A DNA stretch of 64,000 nucleotides. Source: Patescibacteria group bacterium (GTDB lineage: Bacteria; Patescibacteriota; Patescibacteriia; Patescibacteriales; GWC2-42-12). The notes under the pieces are model-generated. The model was not told where the DNA came from. It ran no database searches and saw nothing but the letters and a program-made list of their open reading frames with translations. The stretch covers positions 56,791-120,790 of the forward strand of contig JAQVNC010000001.1 of assembly GCA_028703305.1 (NCBI GenBank), written 5' to 3'. Both the position numbers and the translations under genes were made by a program. Shown in pieces: positions 1,854-63,061 of this stretch. Position 1 is the stretch's first letter, and the number at the start of each line of letters is the position of its first letter.

Positions 1854-2243
1854 TTATTTTTCTTTATTGTTTATTTTTTTTATTTCTTCAAGTCCGGTTG
1901 CCATAAGGCAGTTGCCGTTAAAAACAGCGCCGCGTTCAATTGATAAGCCGGAGGTTTCAATATCGCCGGAGATTTTGGCTGTTGCCGTAATTTCAAGAAA
2001 GCCTTTGATTTTTACATTGCCGGCAACCTGGCCGCCGATTTTTGCTTCTTTAGCTTCTACATTGGCGGTTATTTTGGCAGTCTTGCCCACTTCCAAATTG
2101 CCATTGGTTTTTAAACTGCCGTCAACCATGCCTTCCACGATAATATTGCCTTGGCCGTTAAAATCACCCTTAACCTTTACTGACGGTCCGATAACGGTTT
2201 CAAAATCATTAAAAACTTCTCCTTGGTCTTGTTTGTTGAACAT
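1854..2243 (-). CDS. Bactofilin (CcmA-like polymer-forming cytoskeletal protein)
   Basis: Repetitive beta-helical GDxxG/NVxAKEAKIGGQVAGNVKIKG pattern typical of the bactofilin domain. Confidence 0.8.
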   Translation of the reverse strand: MFNKQDQGEVFNDFETVIGPSVKVKGDFNGQGNIIVEGMVDGSLKTNGNLEVGKTAKITANVEAKEAKIGGQVAGNVKIKGFLEITATAKISGDIETSGLSIERGAVFNGNCLMATGLEEIKKINNKEK

Positions 2244-2482
2244 AAAGTGTATGTAAATTATAAGTTATTAAATAGACCGGTTTTATTAAATTAACTATAC
2301 TAATTCTAGGCAAGTCTGGCCGGTTTGTCAAAATAAAATATTTAAGTTATTATGATAAGAGTAAAATAGAACGCCGATAGCTGGTGTTATTTTTTTAGTG
2401 ATATATTATAATAAGTCCTGGGGGCAGCTTTAAAGCTTAGGAGAAAGCTGTCTATAGGGTTAAATAGTCCCGATTACTTACC

Positions 2483-2554
2483 GCCCTCGTAGTTCAATGG
2501 ATAGAACAAGGGACTCCTAAGCCCTAGATAGAGGTTCGATTCCTCTCGAGGGCA
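2483..2554 (+). tRNA. tRNA-Arg (anticodon CCT)
   Basis: Manual cloverleaf: acceptor gccctcg/cgagggc, D arm gttc/gaac, anticodon loop cuCCUaa, T arm agagg-ttcgatt-cctct; there is one A:G mismatch at the base of the anticodon stem. Confidence 0.7.
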
Positions 2555-2673
2555 CATTGTTTGAAATTTTAGCTAAAATTAGCATAAATATAGATATTTT
2601 GGCTAATATTAGTAGTTTTATAAAATTATTTTGCTAATATTAAAGTAAATATGTAATTATAATTTAATATTAT

Positions 2674-2746
2674 GGGCCATTAGCTCAGCTGGTAGAGCGC
2701 TTCCATGGCATGGAAGAGGTCAAGGGTTCAAGTCCCTTATGGTCCA
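2674..2746 (+). tRNA. tRNA-Ala (anticodon GGC)
   Basis: Cloverleaf gggccat…atggtcc with a G3:U70 wobble (the Ala identity element), anticodon loop atGGCat, T arm aggg-ttcaagt-ccct. Confidence 0.85.
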
Positions 2747-2793
2747 CTAACATTGAACGATTTTTCGTTCTATCAAAAACTCTACTTAAATAT

Positions 2794-3108
2794 ATGATAT
2801 TTAATAAAGATAATTTTAAGACAGAGGTTGAAGGCTTTGCCGGCCTAGTATTGGTTGATTTTTTCGCTCCATGGTGCGGCCCATGCCAAATGATGTCACC
2901 ACTAATAGATGAGCTAATTGCGGAGAATAAAGATAAAGATATTAAAATTGGAAAACTTGATATAGATGAAAGCCCGGAGATCGCTATTCAATATGGTATT
3001 ATGGGTGTCCCGACTTTTATAGTTTTTAAAAATGGCAAAGCAGTAGATAAAAAAACAAATTATTGCGACAAGGAAGAATTGAAACAACTAATCGCCAAAA
3101 ATAAATAG
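2794..3108 (+). CDS. trxA: Thioredoxin
   Basis: WCGPC active site with a thioredoxin fold; the ORF-track start at 2710 overlaps tRNA-Ala, so the internal ATG at 2794 (MIFNKDNF…) was chosen. Confidence 0.85.
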   Translation: MIFNKDNFKTEVEGFAGLVLVDFFAPWCGPCQMMSPLIDELIAENKDKDIKIGKLDIDESPEIAIQYGIMGVPTFIVFKNGKAVDKKTNYCDKEELKQLIAKNK

Positions 3109-3117
3109 TATATAATT

Positions 3118-3143
3118 TTAAGTCCACAAATTTGTGGACTTAA
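3118..3143. promoter_or_regulatory. Perfect 26-bp palindrome (copy 1) followed by a T-run; candidate trxA terminator and/or operator
   Basis: ttaagtccacaaatttgtggacttaa then tttttt. Confidence 0.5.
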
Positions 3144-3163
3144 GTTTTTTATAGCTAACGGGG

Positions 3164-3189
3164 ATAAGTCCACAAATTTGTGGACTTAA
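3164..3189. promoter_or_regulatory. Second identical palindrome (taagtccacaaatttgtggactta) 46 bp downstream of copy 1, upstream of trxB
   Basis: Exact repeat of the copy-1 palindrome core, with no T-run after it. Confidence 0.45.
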
Positions 3190-3275
3190 GTTTAATGAGA
3201 TAGCTAATATTAGCTAAATTTAATTAAGTGGATAAGTTGGGGGTAAATATTAATAATTTGTTAATTTTTAAATAT

Positions 3276-4193
3276 ATGTTTGATACAATAATCATTGGCG
3301 CCGGTCCGACAGGGATGTCGGCAGCTATATATGCCGCCAGAAGAATGATGAAAACATTGGTAATCTCTAAAAATATAGGCGGCCAGGTTATCTGGGCTTC
3401 TGATATAAAAAATTATCCTGGCATAGAGTTTATTAAAGGCTTTGATTTGATAACTAAAATGAGCCGACAGGTGAAAGATCTTGGGGTTGAGATTAAAGCT
3501 GATGAAGTAAAAAAGATCAGCAAAAATAGTGATAATAGCTTTTTAATTGAAGGCAATAAGGCCAGTTATACGGCTAAAACAATAATTATTGCCATGGGGC
3601 TGGCGCCCAGACAGCTTAATTTGGACAAAGAAAATGAGTTAACCGGCAGGGGAATAAGCTACTGCGCCAATTGTGATGGACCATTGTTCAAGGGTAAAAC
3701 TGTGGCTGTGGCTGGGGGCGGCAACGCGGCCTTGGACGCGGCTGAAGTTATGTCTAAAATTGCCAACAAGGTTTATTTGATTTATCGCAAGCCGCAACTA
3801 AAAGCTTTTGAAAGCTTGGTTTCAGCAGTTAAAGATAAAAGTAATGTGGAGATAATTTTAAGCAGTGAAATTTGCCAGATAATTGGCAGTGAAAAATTGG
3901 AAAAATTGAAAATAATTTCTAATATTAGCCAAGAATCAAGAGAATTAGCTGTGGATGGGCTGTTTGTTGAAATTGGCCATCAACCCAAAACAGAGGTGTT
4001 GGAAGGATTAGTGGAAAGAGATAGTTTAGGGCAGGTTGTTGTGGACTTAAGTGGTAAAACCAGCTGTGATGGAGTTTTCGCGGCCGGCGATGTTACTCAA
4101 AGCGAATTTAAGCAGATTGTTATAGGCTGCGGCCAAGGCGCGGTAGCCGCGTTGTCGGCTTATCAATACTTGCAGACAAGCAAACAAAGTTAA
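3276..4193 (+). CDS. trxB: Thioredoxin-disulfide reductase
   Basis: GAGPTG FAD motif, redox CANCDG, GGGNAA NADPH motif, C-terminal GVFAAGDV; an alternative GTG start lies at 3228. Confidence 0.85.
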   Translation: MFDTIIIGAGPTGMSAAIYAARRMMKTLVISKNIGGQVIWASDIKNYPGIEFIKGFDLITKMSRQVKDLGVEIKADEVKKISKNSDNSFLIEGNKASYTAKTIIIAMGLAPRQLNLDKENELTGRGISYCANCDGPLFKGKTVAVAGGGNAALDAAEVMSKIANKVYLIYRKPQLKAFESLVSAVKDKSNVEIILSSEICQIIGSEKLEKLKIISNISQESRELAVDGLFVEIGHQPKTEVLEGLVERDSLGQVVVDLSGKTSCDGVFAAGDVTQSEFKQIVIGCGQGAVAALSAYQYLQTSKQS

Positions 4194-4211
4194 GATAGAA
4201 ATTGCAGATGA

Positions 4212-4318
4212 AGATTGGGCTAAATTTATAAAATTTTCTACTGCGGAACTCGCCCCAACTTAGCGTCGGGGCTCAAACAGTCCTCGCACGAAAATTTTAC
4301 AAGATTTAGCCCAATCTT
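4212..4318 (+). repeat. About 107-nt long-hairpin palindromic element (copy 1; second copy at 9150..9249), possibly a structured RNA
   Basis: Arms gattgggctaaatttataaaatttt…aaaattttacaagatttagcccaatc with a central GC hairpin cccc…gggg; the copy at 9150 has compensatory changes in both outer and central stems. Confidence 0.6.
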
Positions 4319-4328
4319 ATTGCATTAT

Positions 4329-4937
4329 ATGCTAGATTTAACAGAAGAGAAAAAATTATTTTCTCAAGGCTATAAGATAATAGGCGCTTTAGATGAGGCT
4401 GGGCGCGGGCCTTTAGCCGGGCCGGTAGTGGCCGCCTGCGTTATTTTTAATGCTAATATTAGCATAAATAACGACTTAATCAAAGTTAATGACTCAAAAA
4501 AATTAAGCGAAAAAACCAGAGAGGATTTATTTGAGTTAATTAGAAAAAATTTTCTTGAAGTTGGCGTAGGTATATGCGACCATAAAACCATAGACAGAAT
4601 TAATATATTGCAAGCCACGTTTTTGGCCATGAAGAAGGCGATTAGCTCTGTAAAAATCAAGCCGGATTTTATTATAATTGACGGGTCAGCCAACTTACCT
4701 AATTATTCAACTCCGCAGCAAGCTTATATTAAAGGCGATGAAAGGCTTTTTACTGTCGCCGCGGCTTCAATTATCGCCAAAGTGACCAGAGACAGAATAA
4801 TGCGAGAAATGGATAAATTATATCCGGACTACGGTTTTAGCCGGCATAAAGGCTATGGCACTAAATTTCATCTGGAAAAATTAAGGCAATACGGCCCGTG
4901 CGCGATTCACCGTTTAAGTTTTAATAAGGTTAAATAA
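4329..4937 (+). CDS. rnhB: Ribonuclease HII
   Basis: GxDEAGRGPLAGPVVAA active-site region and RNase HII fold; a TTG alternative start lies at 4320. Confidence 0.85.
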   Translation: MLDLTEEKKLFSQGYKIIGALDEAGRGPLAGPVVAACVIFNANISINNDLIKVNDSKKLSEKTREDLFELIRKNFLEVGVGICDHKTIDRINILQATFLAMKKAISSVKIKPDFIIIDGSANLPNYSTPQQAYIKGDERLFTVAAASIIAKVTRDRIMREMDKLYPDYGFSRHKGYGTKFHLEKLRQYGPCAIHRLSFNKVK

Positions 4938-5589: not shown

Positions 5590-5979
5590 ATGGGAAATTT
5601 TTTAACTTGGAATTTTTGGTTTAGCGCCAGGCCTGGCGCATTTACCGACCTTTCTCTTAAAATGGTTTTGGGCTTTATTTTTTTATTGATTATTTTGTCC
5701 ATTGCCAGCGGGGTTATTAAAAAAAGATGGCTTAAAAGTTTATATTTTTCTTTTTGGAGCGGTTTATACACTTTTTTTATTACCAATGCCATTATCGGCT
5801 TAGTGCTAACGTTTTTTAATTATGAAATGGTGCCGTTTTTATCCGCCCGGTTTTGGTTTCTGTTTTGGGCTATAGGCATGTTGGTTTGGCTGGTCTTTAT
5901 TTGCAGGCTTGCCATAAAAATACCGGAGAAAAAGGCGCAAATGGAAAAAGAAAAGGAGTTCAAAAAATATATTCCATAG
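5590..5979 (+). CDS. Hypothetical integral membrane protein (4 predicted TM segments)
   Basis: Hydrophobic segments; function unknown. Confidence 0.45.
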   Translation: MGNFLTWNFWFSARPGAFTDLSLKMVLGFIFLLIILSIASGVIKKRWLKSLYFSFWSGLYTFFITNAIIGLVLTFFNYEMVPFLSARFWFLFWAIGMLVWLVFICRLAIKIPEKKAQMEKEKEFKKYIP

Positions 5980-9138: not shown

Positions 9139-9149
9139 AACTACATTAA

Positions 9150-9249
9150 GCTTGGCCTAAATTTATAAAATTTTCTACTGCGGAACTCGGCCGCCTGCTG
9201 GCGGCCTCAAACAGTCCTCGCACGAAAATTTTACAAATTCAGCCCAAGC
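9150..9249 (+). repeat. Second copy of the long-hairpin element (see 4212..4318), with covarying stems
   Basis: gcttggcctaaatttataaaattttctactgcggaactcg-GCCGCCtgctGGCGGC-ctcaaacagtcctcgcacgaaaattttacaaattcagcccaagc. Confidence 0.6.
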
Positions 9250-9251
9250 AT

Positions 9252-10043
9252 TTGTTCTATATGTTAAGAAACATTGAAAGCCAGCATAATCCATTGATTA
9301 AAAATTTAATAAAGTTGCGCGAAGCCGGCCGGGAAAGAAAGCGACAAGGCTTGTTTTTAATTGAGGGTTGGCGTGAAATAAATTTGGCGCTAAAGGGCGG
9401 AGTGGAAATTGTTAATTTGTTTTATTGCCGAGATTATATTAAGCAAGAATTGGAATTTGATGAAGAAAAATTAATTGAAGTCTCAAAAAAAGTTTTTGCT
9501 AAAATATCTTATCGGGAAAATCCTGACGGTTTTTTGGCGGTAGCAAAGTTTAGGGAAATAAAATTAGAAAACATAGAATTAAGCCCCAAGCCGTTAATAA
9601 TTATTTTGGAAGCGGTGGAAAAACCGGGAAATTTAGGCGCGATTTTGCGCACGGCCGACGCGGCCGGAGCGGACGCCGTTATAATTAATGATCCTAAAAC
9701 CGATATTTATAATCCGAACGTAATCCGCGCCAGCCAAGGCACGGTTTTTACTGTGCCGGTAGTTTTAAATTCAATTGACGAAACAATTAATTTTTGCAAA
9801 AGCAAAAAAATAAAAATTTTAGCCACTACGCCGGACACGAAGAAAGAATATATTGAAGTTGATTATAATGGCGGCTGTGCTATAGTAATGGGCGCGGAAG
9901 ACAAGGGTTTAAGCGATGAATGGCTGGCATCGGCTAATGAAAAAATTAAAATAAAAATGAGGGGGATAATAGATTCATTAAACGTTTCGGTCAGTACAGC
10001 CATAATTTTGTTTGAAGCCGTAAGGCAGAGAAATAATAAATAA
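9252..10043 (+). CDS. TrmH/SpoU-family RNA 2'-O-methyltransferase (RlmB-like)
   Basis: SPOUT motifs LIIILEAVEKPGNLGAILRTADAAGADAVII…IVMGAEDKGLS; the start may be the ATG at 9261. Confidence 0.8.
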   Translation: MFYMLRNIESQHNPLIKNLIKLREAGRERKRQGLFLIEGWREINLALKGGVEIVNLFYCRDYIKQELEFDEEKLIEVSKKVFAKISYRENPDGFLAVAKFREIKLENIELSPKPLIIILEAVEKPGNLGAILRTADAAGADAVIINDPKTDIYNPNVIRASQGTVFTVPVVLNSIDETINFCKSKKIKILATTPDTKKEYIEVDYNGGCAIVMGAEDKGLSDEWLASANEKIKIKMRGIIDSLNVSVSTAIILFEAVRQRNNK

Positions 10044-11171: not shown

Positions 11172-11300
11172 CAAGATAGTTTAGCAAGGTAATGGATTCC
11201 CGCTTTCCCGCCAGAGGCGGACAAGCGCGGGAATGACAAATAGATTCAAGGTAGTTTATTAAGGTAATGGATTGCGGCTCGTAGGCCGCAATGACAAAAT
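11172..11300 (+). repeat. Tandem pair of short hairpin repeats (aaggtaatggattcccgc…gcgggaatgacaa and aaggtaatggattgcggc…gccgcaatgacaa) immediately upstream of the ychF start
   Basis: About 70-bp unit duplicated (tcaagRtagtttaNNaaggtaatggatt…aatgacaaa); both units end in the AATGACAA motif shared with other copies. Confidence 0.65.
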
Positions 11301-15574: not shown

Positions 15575-15900
15575 TTAAGGCTGACATGGCATATAACGCG
15601 CGCGGGATATGCGATGCGCCTGGAGGCCAGTACTCTGGCCGCAAGGCGTTTCGCATATCCCGAGTTGGGCGATGCCGCTCCGCCTTGCCCGTAGGGCGGG
15701 CGAGCGGCGAGTCCAACGAGGGCCTGCCCGCGCGCGTTGAGCAAAACCGCGAGCACCGAGCGTTAGCGAGGGCGGAGCGGTTTTGCTCAACGTATCGGCA
15801 TATCTGATGTTTGCCGTAGCGTAGCGGAGGCAAATATGGGTGGAGGCTTTTGTATAAAAGCCGTAACCAGATATGCCGTGTTATGTGATGTGCATGTTTT
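15575..15900. repeat. GC-rich repeat B: hairpin cgggatatgcga…tcgcatatcccg, then the 66-bp core (15731..15796), then a variable hairpin module (ggcatatctg…cagatatgcc)
   Basis: The core cgcgcGTTGAGCaaaaccgc…gcggttttGCTCAACgtatc is identical to 18911..18976. Confidence 0.7.
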
Positions 15901-18879: not shown

Positions 18880-19140
18880 AACAAATTTTTCAAAAATATG
18901 TCGCCTAACGCGCGCGTTGAGCAAAACCGCGAGCACCGAGCGTTAGCGAGGGCGGAGCGGTTTTGCTCAACGTATCCGAATATACGAAGTTCTAATTTTT
19001 TTCTGTGTTATAATTGTGCGGACACGCCAACGCAGAAAAAAATTAGAATTTAGGCGGAGATAAAATTCAACTCATTAATGTAATGTAAAAAGGAATTTTA
19101 TCGGAGCCGTATATTCGGTGTTATCGGATGTAAAATTTAT
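18880..19140. repeat. GC-rich repeat C: GCCTAAC-gcgcgc then the 66-bp core (18911..18976) then a variable module (cgaatatacg…cgtatattcg, with a nested ttctaatttttttctg…cagaaaaaaattagaa hairpin)
   Basis: 66-bp perfect identity with 15731..15796; the flanking stems covary around a central ATAT. Confidence 0.7.
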
Positions 19141-19597: not shown

Positions 19598-19634
19598 TTT
19601 TTTCTGGATTCCCGCCTGTGCGGGAATGACAAGC
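19598..19634 (+). repeat. Short hairpin repeat ttttctggattcccgcctgtgcgggaatgacaa (S2)
   Basis: Same consensus as the copies at 20845, 50640, 11187 and 62333. Confidence 0.65.
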
Positions 19635-19638
19635 GGGA

Positions 19639-20814
19639 TTATTTTTCCAATATAACTATCTCCCGCCAAACCTTTTGCCCGTCGCGGCCGTAGATAATAC
19701 TGTCGCGGTTGGTTATTTTTAGAAAAATATTTTTTTTCAGGTTGGCCGGTATAGAGCCAATAATTTTATAACCATCTATGTTAGGGTAGATAAAAGTTGA
19801 AAGTTTTCCCTGAAACACGGGCCAAATCATCACGATTTTACCACCGGGTTTTAAAATTTTTTTAAATTCTCTTAAACTTTCGGAATATAATTTTTCCAGT
19901 TCAGTTTTTATTTTATTAATCGGCGTATTGCCTCTTTGCGGGCCTAAATACGGTTCGGTAATAATAAAATCTATTGAATTCGGCGCAATGTGTTTTGAAA
20001 TTTGCGCGGCGTCAGAATGAAAAAGCTTAAAATTTAAAGCTTCAAGTTTAAAATTAGATTGAACCCAGGCGAGATTATTTTTTGTGTCTCCGAGAGCCCT
20101 GTCGGATATATCAGAACCGGTTATTTTTTTATAGCCCATTAAAGCCGCTTCGGTAATAATCGTGCCAGAACCGCAAAATGGATCTAAAATAGCCGCGCCT
20201 AAATCCGCGCCAGCTAAATTTATCATAATCTGCGCCAGCTTGGGCGGCAACATGCCGGAATAATCGTCGCGCGCCGGCCGGCCGTAATCTCTAAATGACA
20301 ATTCTTTAAACGGCTGGACGGCCAGGGTTTTTCCTAAAAGTAATTTTTTATTAAATTCAATAATAACGATTTCCACGCCTTTGTCCGTAACTAATTTGTT
20401 CTGCTCCACCACTACGCTTGATAAAGTCGGTTCCCGGCTTATAACCCAGCGGCTATTTATGCCTGACTCTTTAAGTAATTTTTTAAATTCCATGCCTAAA
20501 ACTTTTAAGTTAATTTTACTTTTACCATAATAAGAAATGCCAAAATTAAATTTTGAATCACTTTTTTCCGGTTTGGCGAAGCTGGTAGCTGATTTTAAAA
20601 TGTCTTTAACAGCAATTGAAGCTGGCTCGCCATGAATTAGGCCGAATTTAACGGTGCCGCCGATTTTTTTAATAATATTAGCCTTTATTTCTTCGTTAGT
20701 TTCTAAAATCGCGATATTTTTTTGAATTAAAGAAAATTGGCCATGATTAAAAACGGCCGTTAGTTCGGCTAAGGATAAAGTCGGGTTGGTGCCCAGAATG
20801 AAGAAATAACGCAT
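19639..20814 (-). CDS. THUMP-domain RNA methyltransferase (RlmL/Trm-G10-like, UPF0020)
   Basis: N-terminal THUMP-like region plus DPFCGSGTIITEAALMGYKKITGSDIS…, a SAM-binding methylase core. Confidence 0.7.
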   Translation of the reverse strand: MRYFFILGTNPTLSLAELTAVFNHGQFSLIQKNIAILETNEEIKANIIKKIGGTVKFGLIHGEPASIAVKDILKSATSFAKPEKSDSKFNFGISYYGKSKINLKVLGMEFKKLLKESGINSRWVISREPTLSSVVVEQNKLVTDKGVEIVIIEFNKKLLLGKTLAVQPFKELSFRDYGRPARDDYSGMLPPKLAQIMINLAGADLGAAILDPFCGSGTIITEAALMGYKKITGSDISDRALGDTKNNLAWVQSNFKLEALNFKLFHSDAAQISKHIAPNSIDFIITEPYLGPQRGNTPINKIKTELEKLYSESLREFKKILKPGGKIVMIWPVFQGKLSTFIYPNIDGYKIIGSIPANLKKNIFLKITNRDSIIYGRDGQKVWREIVILEK

Positions 20815-20844: not shown

Positions 20845-20877
20845 TTTTCTGGATTCCCGCTTTCGCGGGAATGACGA
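20845..20877 (+). repeat. Short hairpin repeat ttttctggattcccgctttcgcgggaatgacgaa (S3)
   Basis: Consensus family member; lies in the THUMP-MTase upstream region. Confidence 0.6.
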
Positions 20878-21114
20878 AGGTAATTTAATTAAACCTTAGC
20901 ATAAGAATATGGCTCTTGCAATTTATTTTTGGCTGTGGTAATGTATGAATACAATTTAATTTAACCTTTCCCATATTTAACTGCTAGTGCTGTTAAATAG
21001 CCTGGCGCAAAGCCAGACTAAAGGTATTCTCAAGTAATCCCATGATTGGCAATTCAAGCCGCGAGAATATCTTGGGATTTTTGTTAATAAGGCAAAAATT
21101 AACCAATTAAAATT

Positions 21115-22121: not shown

Positions 22122-22234
22122 GTCATTGCGAGCGAACGGAGTGAGCGAAGCAATCTCACGTATGAGAAGTTTAAATTATAATTTTTACTTCGTGGGATTG
22201 CTTCGTCGCCTATTACGGCTCCTCGCAATAACAA
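22122..22234. repeat. Nested palindromic repeat L1 (gtcattgcgag…gaagcaatctcac…gtgggattgcttc…ctcgcaataacaa), intercistronic between ssb and rpsR
   Basis: Outer and inner inverted blocks shared with five other copies. Confidence 0.75.
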
Positions 22235-23107: not shown

Positions 23108-23245
23108 GTCATTGCGAGCGTTAGCGAAGCAATCTCACGAACAATTTAAATAGAATAAATTTTTATTGCAGTGATAATCTATGATTTTAATAAATAGTAT
23201 GTGAGATTGCTTCGTCGCACGAGTACGTACTCCTCGCAATGACAA
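23108..23245. repeat. Nested palindromic repeat L2, between the efp and recA 3' ends
   Basis: gtcattgcgagcgttagcgaagcaatctcac…gtgagattgcttcgtcgcacgagtacgtactcctcgcaatgacaa. Confidence 0.75.
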
Positions 23246-37743: not shown

Positions 37744-37845
37744 GTCATTGCGAGGAGCCACGTACTCGTGGCGACGCGGCAATCTCTGGTTGAGCTCCGA
37801 GTATGTGAGATTGCTTCGCTTCCTTTGGTCGCTCGCAATGACAAT
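37744..37845. repeat. Nested palindromic repeat L3
   Basis: gtcattgcgaggagccacgtactcgtggcgacgcggcaatctctg…gtgagattgcttcgcttcctttggtcgctcgcaatgacaa; near-identical to L6. Confidence 0.75.
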
Positions 37846-49597: not shown

Positions 49598-50626
49598 ATG
49601 GAATTAAATAAAAACAACAATAAACCAACTGTTTTTTCCGGAGTTCAGCCTTCGGGCGTTTTGCATTTGGGCAATTATCTGGGTGCTTTGGCCCAATGGG
49701 TGGAAATGCAGAATCAATTTAACTGCATTTTTTGCGTGGTGGATTACCATGCCATTACGGTTAAACAGGAGGCTAAAAATTTATCTGAGAATATTTTAAA
49801 TGTGGTAAAAGCATATCTGGCTTCCGGCATCAACCCGGAAAGATCCGTAATTTTTCAGCAATCGGATATTACGGCGCATACGGAGTTGGCTTGGATTTTA
49901 AATTGCGTGGCCAGAATGTCGGATTTAAATAAGATGACGCAATTTAAGGAAAAAGGTCTGGGCAAAGAATCGGTCGGCGTGGGGCTTTTTGATTATCCGG
50001 TTTTAATGGCGGCCGATATTTTACTCTATAATACCGATGCCGTGCCGGTCGGCGAAGATCAAGTCCAGCATGTGGAATTAACCCGCACGCTGGCAAAAAG
50101 ATTTAATAATGAATATGGCAATGTGTTTAAAATTCCCGAAGTAACGGTCAGGAAACAAGGCGCGCGCATTATGGGGCTTGACGATCCAACGAAAAAAATG
50201 AGCAAAAGCGCGGCTTCGGCGGCCAATTATATTTCTTTATTAGACAGGCCGGAAGCGGCGGCCAAGAAAATTACGCGGGCGGTAACCGACTCGGGCTCGG
50301 AAATAAAATATGACGCGAAGAAAAAGCCGGCCATTGCCAATTTAATGACGATTTATTCATTGTTGTCCAATACGAGTATTAAAGAGCTGGAGGCGAAGTA
50401 TGAAGATAAAGGTCCCGCCTACGCTAAAGCTTCGGCGGGCAAGTATGGTGATTTTAAAAAAGATTTAGCTGGGGTGGTCGTAGAGTTTTTAAATGAATTT
50501 CAAATTAAATATAATAGTTTTAGCGATAAAGAAGTAAAGCAAATTCTAAAAGACGGCGCGGAAAAAGTCAGGCCGATAGCCGAAGCGACATTAAAAAATG
50601 TAAAAAATAATTTAGGCATTAACTAA
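49598..50626 (+). CDS. trpS: Tryptophan--tRNA ligase
   Basis: PSGVLHLGNYLGA (HIGH-type) and KMSKS. Confidence 0.9.
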   Translation: MELNKNNNKPTVFSGVQPSGVLHLGNYLGALAQWVEMQNQFNCIFCVVDYHAITVKQEAKNLSENILNVVKAYLASGINPERSVIFQQSDITAHTELAWILNCVARMSDLNKMTQFKEKGLGKESVGVGLFDYPVLMAADILLYNTDAVPVGEDQVQHVELTRTLAKRFNNEYGNVFKIPEVTVRKQGARIMGLDDPTKKMSKSAASAANYISLLDRPEAAAKKITRAVTDSGSEIKYDAKKKPAIANLMTIYSLLSNTSIKELEAKYEDKGPAYAKASAGKYGDFKKDLAGVVVEFLNEFQIKYNSFSDKEVKQILKDGAEKVRPIAEATLKNVKNNLGIN

Positions 50627-50629
50627 ATT

Positions 50630-50700
50630 GTTATTGCGAAAAATTTCTGGATTCCCGCCTGCGCGGGAATGACAAATTGGAGATTGGTCGCAATGACATT
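50630..50700 (+). repeat. Short hairpin repeat S4 (tttctggattcccgcctgcgcgggaatgacaa) nested inside a minimal gttattgcgaa…gtcgcaatgaca frame; it supplies ATGs upstream of gdh
   Basis: Shares the consensus of the other S copies; the flanks resemble the termini of the L family. Confidence 0.65.
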
Positions 50701-51955: not shown

Positions 51956-52064
51956 GTCATTGCGAGCTTCTGAAAGAAGCGAAGCAATCTCACGAATGGC
52001 AAGTTTGGGTAAAAAATTGTTGTCCGTGAGATTGTTTCGTCGCTGAAGCTCCTCGCAATGACAG
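51956..52064. repeat. Nested palindromic repeat L4
   Basis: gtcattgcgagcttctgaaagaagcgaagcaatctcac…gtgagattgtttcgtcgctgaagctcctcgcaatgaca. Confidence 0.75.
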
Positions 52065-57620: not shown

Positions 57621-57662
57621 GTGTGAGATTGCTTCGTCGCTGGAGCTCCTCGCAATGACAAT
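57621..57662. repeat. Right half of nested palindromic repeat L5 (a possible degenerate left arm lies near 57513)
   Basis: gtgtgagattgcttcgtcgctggagctcctcgcaatgacaa. Confidence 0.6.
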
Positions 57663-58920: not shown

Positions 58921-59013
58921 GTCATTGCGAGGAGCGCTAGCGACGAAGCAATCTCTGGTTAATATCCGAGTACGTGAGATTGCTTCGCTCCTTTCAGTCG
59001 CTCGCAATGACAC
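58921..59013. repeat. Nested palindromic repeat L6, abutting the glyA stop
   Basis: gtcattgcgaggagcgctagcgacgaagcaatctctg…gtgagattgcttcgctcctttcagtcgctcgcaatgaca. Confidence 0.75.
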
Positions 59014-59970: not shown

Positions 59971-60008
59971 AAGGAAATGGATCCCGGGTCAAGTCCGCAA
60001 TGACAATA
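59971..60008 (+). repeat. Degenerate short hairpin repeat S6 (aaggaaatggatcccgggtcaagtccgcaatgacaa) overlapping the recQ start
   Basis: Matches the aaggtaatggattcccgc…gcaatgacaa family; its aATGacaa provides the recQ ATG. Confidence 0.5.
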
Positions 60009-62074: not shown

Positions 62075-62785
62075 ATGGATAAACAAACGCAGAAAAATTT
62101 ATTAGAGCTGGTAAAAAAAAATTACGAGGAAATCGCGGAGAATTTTGATATAACCAGAAAAAAACAGTTATGGCCGGAGCTTTTGAAATTGGCCGAAATG
62201 GTGAAAGATGGAGATAGAATTTTAGATGTTGGCTGTGGCAACGGTAGATTGATAGAAGCGTTTGGCGAAAAGAAAATAGAATATCTGGGAGTGGATAGTA
62301 GTGAGAAACTGGTTGAAACGGCGAAGAAGAATCTGGGCTCCCGCCTGCGCGGGCATGACAAATTGGCGGTCGGTGATATTTTAAAATTGGATAAATTGCC
62401 GGAGAAAGATTTTAATTATGTTTTTTGCATTGCCGTCTTGCACCATCTGCCGGGCGAAGATTTAAGGCTGGAAGCTTTAAAGCAGATGAAAAATAAAATA
62501 AATAGTAACGGCAAAATTATAATCACGGTTTGGAATTTATGGAGCCGGTGGAAATTTATAAAATTGATTTTTAAGTACGGTTGGTTTAAGTCAGCCGGCA
62601 AAAACCAGATGGACTTCGGCGATATTTTGTTTGATTGGAAAAATAATAAGGGCGAGCGGATTAGCCGGCGGTATTACCATGCCTTTACCAAAAATGAATT
62701 AAAAAAACTGTCTGTCCGCGCGGGGTTTAAAGCGGAGAAAATATATAAAGATAAATATAATTATTACGCGATTTTAACCAAATAG
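62075..62785 (+). CDS. Class I SAM-dependent methyltransferase carrying an in-frame repeat-derived insertion
   Basis: LDVGCGNGRL motif I; residues …LGSRLRGHDKLAVGD… are encoded by an S-type repeat. Confidence 0.65.
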   Translation: MDKQTQKNLLELVKKNYEEIAENFDITRKKQLWPELLKLAEMVKDGDRILDVGCGNGRLIEAFGEKKIEYLGVDSSEKLVETAKKNLGSRLRGHDKLAVGDILKLDKLPEKDFNYVFCIAVLHHLPGEDLRLEALKQMKNKINSNGKIIITVWNLWSRWKFIKLIFKYGWFKSAGKNQMDFGDILFDWKNNKGERISRRYYHAFTKNELKKLSVRAGFKAEKIYKDKYNYYAILTK

Positions 62786-62941: not shown

Positions 62942-63061
62942 CAAAGTAAATTTGAAAATTTGGCTGGGTAGCTTCCGCCTACGCCAAGGCTTCGACGGAC
63001 AAGCGCATTAGAGATATGTTTATGTCTTTATGGCTTGCCCTACGAAGCTTTAGCGAAGTAG

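What the first reader, a model, noticed from the sequence alone, without database searches (positions are those of the whole stretch)
62333..62376. In-frame insertion of a repeat element inside a methyltransferase coding sequence (RPE-like)
Within CDS 62075..62785, the segment ctgggctcccgcctgcgcgggcatgacaaattggcggtcgg matches the S-repeat plus its flank at 50650..50690 (ctggattcccgcctgcgcgggaatgacaaattggagattgg). It is translated as …LGSRLRGHDKLAVGD… without disrupting the frame.

This parallels Rickettsia palindromic elements (RPEs), which create novel peptide insertions in proteins.
Basis: partly seen in the sequence, partly recalled or inferred. Interest (0 to 1): 0.6.

Follow-up and report, generated by a model that had tools for sequence, protein, structure and literature searches.

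The report
Hairpin repeat inside a methyltransferase gene
A 30-base copy of a hairpin DNA repeat found in many bacterial phyla (the CGTC-1 REP / Neisseria dRS3-NTS / "Ssn-related motif" family, which includes Rickettsia RPE-6) sits in frame in a surface loop of a tRNA-methyltransferase-like gene of a Patescibacteria genome; this kind of event is known, but the same loop turns out to collect repeat-derived sequence throughout the gene family.

Summary
Window 62333-62373 matches the intergenic repeat at 50647-50687 at 35/41 bases, and the 14-nt palindromic core is exact.

- **Identity.** The "S-repeat" is a known element: CGTC-1 REP = Neisseria dRS3/NTS = Ssn-related motif (SRM). One paper equates this family with Rickettsia RPE-6.
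- **Extent.** Only 62333-62362 (10 codons, L87-K96) comes from the repeat. 62363-62374 are native strand codons. The net gain over minimal orthologues is about 5 residues, not 14.
- **State.** This copy is decayed. Three arm substitutions shorten the stem from 8 to 5 bp.

Syntenic orthologues show an empty site (L005), a perfect SRM (L001, L002, L208-L210), or unrelated repeats (L003, L004, L006) at the same loop. In 93 of 120 orthologues this loop carries extra residues; no other loop does in more than 13. Proteins 90-95% identical elsewhere carry different inserts.

The AlphaFold model (pLDDT 91) puts the insert at the end of helix 77-90 and the loop before strand 96-99.

No Ssn nuclease gene lies in the window, and how the repeat spreads is still unknown.

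Verdict: a new member of a known kind, with moderate interest because of the hot spot.

The parts
62075..62785 (+). Host gene: Trm9-like class I SAM-dependent methyltransferase, 236 aa, directly downstream of recQ.
   Evidence: Pfam Methyltransf_12/31/23/25/11, E about 1e-15. Identical protein P0001 is in an NCBI Patescibacteria MAG and in an independent Logan assembly, L207. Best solved relative is Trm9, 5cm2_Z, by sequence profile (E 1e-18) and by fold. AF2 model mean pLDDT 91.2. Synteny SHMT-FolD-RecQ-MTase...HU-YmdB is conserved in L001, L005 and L006.
62333..62362 (-). Decayed SRM / CGTC-1 REP copy, read antisense to the gene. Minus strand, 62333-62360: TGTCATGCCCGCGCAGGCGGGAGCCCAG. On the coding strand it forms 10 codons, L87-G-S-R-L-R-G-H-D-K96.
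   Evidence: Matches the published SRM pattern. 26/30 identical to the intact in-gene copy of L001. The three differences from the consensus all lie in the hairpin arms (gat->ggc, aat->cat). The DNA hairpin falls to a 5-bp stem, -6.3 kcal/mol, z -1.3; intergenic copies have 8 bp and -8.9 to -9.0 kcal/mol.
62363..62377 (+). Native codons L97-A-V-G-D101 (strand beta3 and the GD motif).
   Evidence: Repeat-free orthologues conserve it (KFAVGD in L135, AFLVGD in L005). The model places strand E96-99 here.
50647..50674 (-). Intact intergenic SRM (TGTCATTCCCGCGCAGGCGGGAATCCAG) between trpS and the glutamate dehydrogenase gene. A degenerate second unit ending in CGCAATGACA follows at 50675-50698.
   Evidence: 8-bp stem, -8.9 kcal/mol.
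19604..19631 (-). Intact intergenic SRM, just downstream of the minus-strand gene 19639-20814.
20849..20876 (-). Intact intergenic SRM with a CGTC head, just upstream of the same minus-strand gene 19639-20814.

Best explanation
Window 62333-62362 is a decaying copy of a hairpin repeat found in many bacterial phyla. The repeat has a TGTC/CGTC head, an 8-bp stem starting with AT, a 4-nt loop and a CCA tail. The literature calls it CGTC-1 REP, dRS3, NTS or Ssn-related motif (SRM). Here it lies antisense and in frame in the loop between helix aB and strand beta3 of a Trm9-like methyltransferase.

**Shown.**
- The repeat belongs to that family.
- Orthologues in conserved synteny have the site empty, or filled by an intact SRM, or filled by unrelated repeats.
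- The loop is the one indel hot spot of the family.
- The window copy has lost 3 of its 8 stem pairs.
- The protein keeps all invariant family residues and models confidently.

**Inferred.**
- An SRM reached this loop in an ancestor, probably next to or inside an older repeat. The likely ancestral form is the composite still seen in L001, L002, L209 and L210: S-hairpin, then about 15 nt, then a remnant ending CGCAATGACAAA.
- The window lineage then lost 27 nt (9 codons) by deletion between the two direct AATGACAA repeats. That gives ...GNDK|WAVGD, which is now GHDKLAVGD.
- The copy then drifted.
- It survives because 5 of the repeat's 6 reading frames are open and because the loop lies at the N-terminal end of beta3, on the side of the sheet away from the SAM pocket. 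The net effect is about 5 extra residues that lengthen helix aB and its loop.

How SRMs disperse is unknown. The only tested biochemistry is site-specific ssDNA cleavage by the small GIY-YIG nuclease SsnA. Recombination or gene conversion between copies, with or without an Ssn-type enzyme, is my working assumption.
For: **Family identity.**
- The published SRM pattern hits the site.
- The reverse complement fits the NTS consensus CGTCATTCCCGCGMAVGCGGGAATCYRG except for its first base.
- It has the CGTC-1 features listed in PMC3733652.
- The exact 25-mer occurs in more than 120 genomes across phyla, including Neisseria, Parcubacteria and a Nanoarchaeote.

**Insertion.**
- Empty site in syntenic L005 and in the more distant L131-L133 and L135.
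- Trm9 also has the short loop.
- Perfect SRM at the same codons in L001, L002, L208, L209 and L210.
- Other elements at the same site: (GAATTAC)x4 in L003 and GAGATTGC...GCAATGAC-type hairpins in L004 and L006.

**Hot spot.**
- 93 of 120 orthologues have extra residues here (mean 7.8, maximum 45), against <=13 of 120 at any other site.
- The inserts fall into at least five unrelated classes.
- Pairs 90-95% identical outside the loop carry different loop contents or none. The nearest neighbour shares the insert class in only 58 of 120 cases.

**Decay.** Fold energies are. The window copy is the only one of six with changes inside the hairpin stem.

**Deletion model.** The L001 sequence '...ggg aat gac aag gat ggg gta gtt gct cgc aat gac aaa tgg gca gtt ggt gat' collapses onto the window's '...ggg cat gac aaa ttg gcg gtc ggt gat'. 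The same short form appears in L208, whose protein P0010 groups with the long-form P0028.

**Tolerance.** Model pLDDT 91.2, with helix 77-90, loop 91-95 and strand 96-99.

**Generality.**
- A 10-aa hairpin-repeat insert in TrpRS in this window.
- In-frame SRMs in a Parcubacteria TGT and in a Nanoarchaeota DNA methylase.
Against: - No Ssn/GIY-YIG gene lies in the 64-kb window or in the orthologous loci, apart from one weak GIY-YIG ORF in L129. The link to Ssn therefore rests on sequence identity with published motifs only.
- The direction and number of events are not resolved. The NJ tree is unsupported, and P0001's nearest relatives (75-78% identity) carry every insert class. Shared descent with L001/L002 and the deletion step are plausible but unproven.
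- No target-site duplication or conserved target sequence is visible at the empty sites, so 'insertion' cannot be told apart from replacement by recombination.
- In five orthologues the hairpin arms are far more conserved than the neighbouring codons. Variable columns: 2/25 against 31/60, Fisher p = 1.6e-4. Variable third positions: 2/10 against 14/19, p = 0.016. That does not fit a purely passive, neutral passenger in those lineages.
Confidence: 0.8

Rival explanations
1. The in-gene hairpin is kept for a function at the DNA or RNA level. It could be an Ssn or recombination signal that shapes uptake and integration of DNA, as NTS does in Neisseria, or a structure that affects transcription or translation of this gene. 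On this view the loop is a selected landing pad, not just a tolerant site.
For: - The arms of the in-gene SRM are nearly invariant in L001, L002, L208, L209 and L210, including synonymous positions, while flanking codons and the adjacent module vary (2/25 against 31/60 variable columns, p = 1.6e-4).
- An SRM also sits 10-20 nt upstream of the start codon of this gene in L002, L003, L004 and L005.
- In the 20.7 kb of L001, the only SRMs are the ones inside this gene.
- Every insert sampled at the DNA level has the same orientation.
Against: - The window copy, which is the finding itself, has three substitutions in its arms, all of them inside the 8-bp stem, and folds no better than shuffled sequence. 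So it is not maintained in this genome.
- About a quarter of orthologues lack any insert, and others carry unrelated sequences.
- Arm conservation could also come from recent or repeated insertion of the consensus, or from gene conversion by other genomic copies.
- SsnA does not act on RNA or on dsDNA.
Confidence: 0.15
2. Chance or convergence: the segment is a native GC-rich loop that merely resembles the intergenic repeat.
Against: - The 14-nt core is exact, and 0 of 100 shuffles reached the observed count.
- The SRM pattern is expected 0.08 times and was found 4 times.
- Orthologues carry the perfect element at the same codons, and others have the site empty.
Confidence: 0.02
3. Assembly or annotation artefact: a chimeric contig, or a pseudogene wrongly called as a gene.
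For: The source is a metagenome-assembled genome, and repeats are a classic cause of misassembly.
Against: - An independent Logan assembly of a public read set encodes the identical 236-aa protein (L207).
- The frame stays open.
- All 25 invariant family residues are present.
- The model is confident.
- More than a dozen independently assembled orthologues show the same architecture.
Confidence: 0.02

Closest known systems
CGTC-1 REP family (Di Nocera et al. 2013, PMC3733652) = Neisseria dRS3 / NTS = Ssn-related motif (SRM; PMC11893778)
   Same: - Head TGTC (a stated variant of CGTC), 8-bp stem opening with AT, 4-nt loop, CCA tail. The intergenic window copies fit every feature.
- The NTS consensus matches at every position except its first base, and the published SRM pattern hits all four copies.
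- Intragenic copies in known proteins are already described for this family.
   Different: - The host phylum is new. The 2013 survey lists 5 phyla without Patescibacteria, and my literature searches found nothing on these repeats in CPR.
- The in-gene window copy is degenerate (5-bp stem).
- No Ssn gene was found nearby, whereas the paper reports SRMs around 71% of the ssnA homologue genes it surveyed.
- A hot spot spanning a whole gene family with many insert classes has not been described. The nearest precedent is different REPs at about the same site in recB of two Xanthomonas species.
Rickettsia palindromic elements (RPE)
   Same: Palindromic repeats inserted in frame into housekeeping genes, adding surface peptides compatible with fold and function. 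PMC3733652 states that the intragenic R. conorii CGTC-1 and CGTC-4 REPs are RPE-6 and RPE-4, so the window element belongs to the same repeat family as RPE-6.
   Different: The classical RPE-1 type is about 100-150 bp and restricted to Rickettsia. This element is 28-30 nt and spans many phyla. I did not compare it directly with RPE sequences; the equivalence rests on the paper's statement.
REP/BIME elements mobilised by RAYT transposases (GTAG REPs)
   Same: Short GC-rich hairpins with an asymmetric head, clustered in tandem or as dimers, mostly intergenic and occasionally intragenic. An enzyme acting on the single-stranded hairpin is implicated.
   Different: The head is TGTC/CGTC, not GTAG. 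No RAYT is associated with this family. The associated enzyme proposed in 2025 is a GIY-YIG ssDNA nuclease, and no transposition activity has been shown for it.
MITEs that form in-frame fusions (ERIC, BOX, Coxiella QMITE1; review PMC10969869)
   Same: Non-autonomous repeats that can be read through as part of a host ORF.
   Different: MITEs are roughly 70-300 bp with terminal inverted repeats, usually with target-site duplications. Here there is a single 28-nt hairpin and no duplication is visible.

Membership tests
Ssn-related motif (SRM) / NTS | Matches the published degenerate pattern HGTCWYN(0-2)YYVSBRHN(0-5)WNVSBRGN(0-2)RNCYNB | tested here: met
   62333-62360 (minus strand) matches, as do 19604, 20849 and 50647. 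Simulations expect 0.08 hits.
Ssn-related motif (SRM) / NTS | Forms a stable hairpin as single-stranded DNA | tested here: inconclusive
   the intergenic copies have an 8-bp stem (-8.9 to -9.0 kcal/mol, z -4.3 to -5.8). The in-gene copy has only a 5-bp stem (-6.3 kcal/mol, z -1.3).
Ssn-related motif (SRM) / NTS | Conserved head (GTC, the three bases before the palindrome) and the C immediately after the palindrome; these are the bases critical for SsnA cleavage and binding | tested here: met
   The sequence TGTCAT...GGGAGC-C keeps GTC and the trailing C. The palindrome positions next to them are mutated.
Ssn-related motif (SRM) / NTS | The genome encodes an SsnA-type GIY-YIG nuclease (cd10448), often flanked by SRMs | tested here: not met
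   Nothing in the 64-kb window by motif scan, by Pfam on the neighbouring ORFs, or by tblastn with two Ssn-like proteins recovered from L042 and L084. The rest of the genome was not available, so this is absence in the window only.
Ssn-related motif (SRM) / NTS | Cleaved as ssDNA by the cognate Ssn | not testable with these tools
   This needs biochemistry.
CGTC-1 REP (Di Nocera 2013) | CGTC or TGTC head, 8-bp stem with AT at the first two positions, 4-nt loop, 3-nt CCA tail | tested here: met
   The family copies at 50647, 19604 and 20849 meet every feature. The in-gene copy keeps the head, loop and tail but has lost the outer 3 stem pairs.
dRS3 (strict definition ATTCCC-N8-GGGAAT) | Exact 20-bp palindromic frame | tested here: not met
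   The in-gene copy reads ATGCCC-N8-GGGAGC. The three intergenic copies do meet the definition.
Rickettsia palindromic elements | Sequence homology to a named RPE family | not tested
   No RPE sequences were at hand. PMC3733652 states that CGTC-1 REPs correspond to RPE-6 in R. conorii.
Rickettsia palindromic elements | In-frame insertion into a conserved protein at a structurally tolerant surface site | tested here: met
MITE | 70-300 bp, terminal inverted repeats, target-site duplication | tested here: not met
   The unit is 28-30 nt, and no duplication flanks it in the window or in L001, L002 or L208-L210.
Trm9-like class I SAM methyltransferase (the host gene) | Rossmann-type methyltransferase motifs, with Trm9 as the closest solved relative over the full length | tested here: met
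   Pfam hits. 5cm2_Z at E 1e-18 over residues 27-234. Foldseek top hit 5cm2_Z, TM 0.83 normalised to the target. Substrate and activity were not tested.

The most novel reading that the evidence does not exclude
The aB-beta3 loop of this Trm9-like methyltransferase may be a preferred, orientation-specific landing or exchange site for SRM hairpins and other short repeats across Patescibacteria. On this reading the in-gene hairpins are kept intact at the DNA level, so coding sequence would double as a signal for an ssDNA-acting system (Ssn-like, or linked to transformation or recombination). The locus would then give a natural series of filled, empty and replaced sites from which the unknown way these repeats spread could be worked out.
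Probability: 0.2. Interest if true: 0.65.

Novelty: new member of a known kind. Interest (0 to 1): 0.42.

Why it matters
- **Host range.** In-frame palindromic-repeat insertions, so far documented mainly in Rickettsia and a few Proteobacteria, also occur in ultra-small Patescibacteria and DPANN genomes. They involve the very repeat family (dRS3/NTS/SRM) that was recently tied to a site-specific ssDNA nuclease.
- **Annotation.** These inserts explain odd '[10 protein letters not shown]', 'REIASS...APRNDK' and 'VIPAQAGIQ' peptides in CPR proteins. They also explain length variation that could be mistaken for misassembly or for new domains.
- **Mechanism.** One loop differs between proteins that are 90-95% identical elsewhere, and hairpin arms are conserved inside a coding region. 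That offers a tractable comparative system for an open question: how CGTC-type REPs spread, given that they lack a known transposase.

Tried and rejected
1. **GC-peak census.** Scanning for GC-rich peaks to find every intragenic hairpin was too noisy, because ordinary coding GC peaks dominate. I dropped it in favour of motif searches.
2. **Metagenome scan.** Only L127-L135 were useful.
3. **Walking the source contig.** The look-up of P0001 returned only a 1-kb Logan contig, so the rest of the genome could not be searched for Ssn.
4. **Ssn search.** Pfam on nine ORFs near the repeats found no nuclease (RpsR, SSB, EF-P, RecA and a UPF0020 methyltransferase; four ORFs had no hit). A GIY-YIG motif scan and tblastn with Ssn-like proteins from L042 and L084, and with the small GIY-YIG ORF of L129, were negative for the window.
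5. **Automatic codon alignment.** It mis-registered the repeat by pairing the window's HDK with the second RNDK. I used only its whole-gene identity figures and aligned the repeat by hand.
6. **RecQ alignment.** In one search the window row was translated in the wrong frame and must be ignored. Only the locus rows were used.
7. **Supplementary files.** None are held for the Ssn paper.
8. **Strand bias.** All four SRMs lie on the minus strand and GC skew is positive across the window, but four copies are too few to claim a replication-strand bias.
9. **Conserved target sequence.** I looked for one, such as AATGAC, at the empty sites. The empty sites share only 'P-x-N-x-F' and no common DNA motif, so this was not pursued.

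Full report
**1. The observation**

CDS 62075-62785 (+) encodes a 236-aa protein that contains ...AKKNLGSRLRGHDKLAVGD.... The stretch 62333-62373 aligns without gaps to the intergenic stretch 50647-50687 at 35/41 bases.

The repeat finder groups 62332-62374 with 50646-50688 (86%), 19603-19645 (79%) and 20848-20890 (72%). The palindromic core CCCGCCTGCGCGGG is exact in the gene and at 50654. It occurs four times at <=2 mismatches against 0.32 expected, and no shuffle out of 100 reached four.

**2. What the repeat is**

Read on the minus strand, the intergenic copies are TGTCATTCCCGCGCAGGCGGGAATCCAG. An exact 25-mer derived from it (GGATTCCCGCYTGYGCGGGAATGAC) turned up in more than 120 genomes before the scan reached its limit. 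These include Neisseria, Azospirillum, Cupriavidus, Sphingomonas, Planctomycetes, Chloroflexi, Parcubacteria and a Nanoarchaeote.

The literature identifies the element.
- It fits the 28-nt 'Neisseria Transformation Sequence' CGTCATTCCCGCGMAVGCGGGAATCYRG, which contains the dRS3 repeat ATTCCC-N8-GGGAAT, at every position except the first.
- It belongs to the 'Ssn-related motifs' (SRM). These hairpins are bound and cleaved as single-stranded DNA by the 94-aa GIY-YIG nuclease SsnA and its homologues (PMC11893778).
- The paper's degenerate SRM pattern hits exactly four sites in the window, all on the minus strand: 19604-19631, 20849-20876, 50647-50674 and 62333-62360. Simulations expect 0.08 hits.
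- An earlier survey (PMC3733652) defines the same element as the CGTC-1 REP family: CGTC or TGTC head, 8-bp stem opening with AT, 4-nt loop, CCA tail. It states that CGTC-1 units are dRS3 in Neisseria and RPE-6 in Rickettsia conorii. It also records intragenic copies in known proteins.

**3. Is it an insertion?**

The protein is a class I SAM methyltransferase. Its closest solved relative, by sequence profile and by fold, is the tRNA methyltransferase Trm9 (5cm2_Z). It has 1095 detectable homologues, and the identical sequence is present in an NCBI Patescibacteria MAG.

I fetched orthologous loci that share the window's gene order of SHMT, FolD, RecQ, MTase and then HU, YmdB, RNase Y. At the DNA level, the site contains:
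- **L005:** empty ('gcc aag ttt ccg aat aag gca ttt tta gtc ggc gat', AKFPNKAFLVGD).
- **L001, L002, L208, L209, L210:** a perfect SRM ('ctg gat tcc cgc ctg cgc ggg aat gac aa.', [10 protein letters not shown]). Except in L208, a second degenerate unit ending in cgc aat gac/aat follows.
- **L127:** the same hairpin with extra sequence in its loop.
- **L003:** four tandem copies of the heptamer GAATTAC (YELRITNYEF).
- **L004, L006:** GAGATTGC...GCAATGAC-type hairpins, a family that is abundant in the window's intergenic regions.

More distant orthologues (L131-L133, L135; 52-55% identity) and Trm9 itself have the short loop. The segment is therefore an acquired repeat, not an ancestral loop.

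Only 62333-62362 (codons L87-K96) is repeat. The net gain over the minimal form is about 5 residues.

**4. State of the window copy**

Compared with the consensus and with the five intact in-gene copies, the window copy has three substitutions in the arms, all of them inside the 8-bp stem (gat->ggc and aat->cat, giving D->G and N->H). As ssDNA it keeps a 5-bp stem at -6.3 kcal/mol, no better than shuffles (z -1.3). The intergenic copies and the L001 copy fold with 8 bp at -8.9 to -9.0 kcal/mol.

The window lacks the second module seen in L001, L002, L209 and L210. Deleting the 27 nt between the two direct AATGACAA repeats of an L001-like sequence gives ...GNDK-WAVGD, which is one substitution each from the window's GHDK-LAVGD. 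This is an inference. L208 (P0010, the sister of long-form P0028 in the NJ tree) shows the same short form.

**5. Structure**

An AlphaFold2 model built from an 81-sequence alignment has mean pLDDT 91.2 and pTM 0.89. It shows helix 77-90, loop 91-95 and strand 96-99. The repeat-coded residues 87-96 therefore extend helix aB and form the loop before beta3. Block pLDDT there is 80-86.

From the established topology of class I methyltransferases, SAM binds at the C-terminal ends of beta1-beta3, so this connection lies on the opposite edge of the sheet. From memory, not tested here: in eukaryotic Trm9 the beta3 edge contacts Trm112, a partner that bacteria generally lack.

All 25 invariant family positions are present in the window protein. 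An independent Logan assembly gives the identical protein (L207).

**6. The hot spot**

- Across the 120 closest orthologues, 93 carry extra residues at this one junction (mean 7.8, up to 45). No other junction is expanded in more than 13.
- Only 28 have the short form. The others fall into unrelated classes: about 16 S-type SRM; about 25 'REIASS..APRNDK' hairpins; about 24-28 heptamer-type (xLxIxNxxF, which is three 7-nt units read in three frames; confirmed at DNA level in L003); about 12 'FQFSIFNFQ/QIPITN'; 6 'WKMSxSLRxGDW'; and others.
- Turnover is fast. Proteins 90-95% identical outside the loop differ completely within it, for example P0077/P0110, P0040/P0051, and P0096 against the empty P0105. 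The nearest neighbour shares the insert class in only 58 of 120 cases.
- Every insert I saw at the DNA level has the same orientation, with AATGACA at the 3' end of the coding strand.
- In the five orthologues with intact SRMs, the arms are almost invariant (2 of 25 columns vary). By contrast, 31 of 60 columns vary in the preceding helix codons and the following module (Fisher p = 1.6e-4). Third codon positions vary at 2/10 against 14/19 (p = 0.016). Background third-position identity between these genes is about 0.6.
- This pattern points to DNA-level constraint, to homogenisation by other copies, or to repeated recent insertion. I cannot tell which.
- SRMs also sit 10-20 nt upstream of this gene's start codon in L002-L005. 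In the 20.7 kb of L001, the only SRMs are those inside the gene.

**7. Generality**

- In the same window, TrpRS carries a 10-residue insert (PAYAKASAGK, 50414-50443) that is absent from solved TrpRS structures. It is encoded by a different hairpin repeat, whose second copy is intergenic at 62975-62998.
- RecQ of L003 has a 10-aa 'SARGGSAFGG' insert, and RecQ of L004 and L005 has 'LRITNYELR'.
- Two other loops of the methyltransferase carry 'PASAGSARGG' or 'PPAGEAG' in a few lineages.
- Of three CPR/DPANN loci recovered with the exact SRM, two have it in frame inside real genes: a Parcubacteria tRNA-guanine transglycosylase and a Nanoarchaeota N6/N4 DNA methylase. The third is intergenic.
- In the low-GC loci of that scan (which include the Nanoarchaeota locus), 16 of 18 copies lie outside long ORFs.
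- Five of the element's six reading frames are open, as can be read directly from the sequence. The resulting peptides ([43 protein letters not shown]) are visible.

**8. Mechanism and its limits**

The best-supported account is a passenger hairpin repeat fixed in a tolerant loop and now decaying in this genome. How it got there is not known. CGTC REPs have no dedicated transposase. The Ssn paper shows ssDNA cleavage and an effect on transformation, not mobilisation. No Ssn or GIY-YIG gene is present in the window. No target duplication or shared target motif marks the empty sites.

The conservation of arms in sister lineages keeps open a functional or targeted reading (rival 1 and the novel case).

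**9. Verdict**

Intragenic, in-frame CGTC-type REPs (RPE-6/RPE-4) and different REPs at the same site in orthologous genes (Xanthomonas recB) are already on record. The element itself is named and partly characterised. I therefore class this as a new member of a known kind in a new phylum.

The scale and turnover of the hot spot across the family, and the DNA-level conservation of hairpins inside coding sequence, were not found in my literature searches. They give the finding moderate interest.

Noticed in passing
window 50414-50443 (in trpS, 49598-50626), with a second copy at 62975-62998: A different hairpin repeat (CCGCCTACGCYAARGCTTCGRCGG) encodes a 10-residue in-frame insert, PAYAKASAGK, in tryptophanyl-tRNA synthetase. 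The insert is absent from solved TrpRS structures. The other copy is intergenic, between tRNA-Arg and tRNA-Met.
   Followed up: partly
window 19604-19631 and 20849-20876, flanking gene 19639-20814 (-): Two intact SRMs in the same orientation bracket a 391-aa UPF0020/N6_N4-type methyltransferase gene. This echoes the 'repeat-gene-repeat' layout described around ssnA. Whether the gene is a mobile cassette was not examined.
   Followed up: no
window 22122-22157, 23108-23136, 23203-23243, 37744-37786, 37807-37842, 51956-51991, 52028-52062, 57625-57659, 58921-58955, 58976-59011; also 11287-11296 and 59996-60005: A second, abundant hairpin family with the same TGTCATT head (TGTCATTGCGAGG...GCGAAGCAATCTCAC) lies between genes, often as inverted pairs. 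Its translation (REIAS..APRNDK) is the commonest long insert in the methyltransferase loop of other lineages.
   Followed up: partly
L002 10131-10150, L003 9966-9985, L004 about 9998-10025, L005 about 9968-9990: An SRM-type hairpin sits 10-20 nt upstream of the start codon of the orthologous methyltransferase in four lineages. This includes L005, whose loop is empty.
   Followed up: partly
L011 6519-7439 (-) and L018 962-2695 (-): A Parcubacteria tRNA-guanine transglycosylase and a Nanoarchaeota N6/N4 DNA methylase each carry SRM copies in frame. The peptides are VIPAKAGIQ and LDSRLRGND in the first, and VIPAQAGIQ and MDSCFRRND in the second.
   Followed up: partly
L003 RecQ (2236-4329); L004 RecQ 2009-2022; L005 RecQ 5889-5909: RecQ orthologues carry repeat-derived in-frame segments. 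L003 has a 10-aa 'SARGGSAFGG' insert. L004 and L005 have (GAATTAC)n heptamer arrays read as LRITNYELR.
   Followed up: no
P0003, P0029, P0065 (after residue 144); P0007, P0022, P0025, P0052 (after residue 177): Two other loops of the same methyltransferase carry recurrent short inserts in scattered lineages: 'PASAGSARGG' and 'PPAGEAG'.
   Followed up: no
window 15729-15811 and 18909-18991; also 14941, 15771 and 18951: An 83-nt direct repeat (94% identical) contains an internal inverted repeat, CGTTGAGCAAAACCGC...GCGGTTTTGCTCAACG. It is unrelated to the SRM family.
   Followed up: no
window 4208-4255 and 9145-9192: A 48-nt direct repeat, 92% identical (ATGAAGATTGGGCTAAATTTATAAAATTTTCTACTGCGGAACTCGCCC), of unknown nature.
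   Followed up: no
window 3113-3142 / 3165-3194: A near-perfect 30-nt inverted repeat pair (TAAGTCCACAAATTTGTGGACTTA core, itself palindromic) lies just upstream of ORF 3228-4193. It looks like an operator.
   Followed up: no
L129 4772-5023: An 83-aa GIY-YIG-like ORF lies about 1 kb downstream of a methyltransferase orthologue. It is only weakly similar to the Ssn-like proteins of L042 and L084 (tblastn E about 0.01-0.02). Whether it belongs to the Ssn family was not determined.
   Followed up: partly
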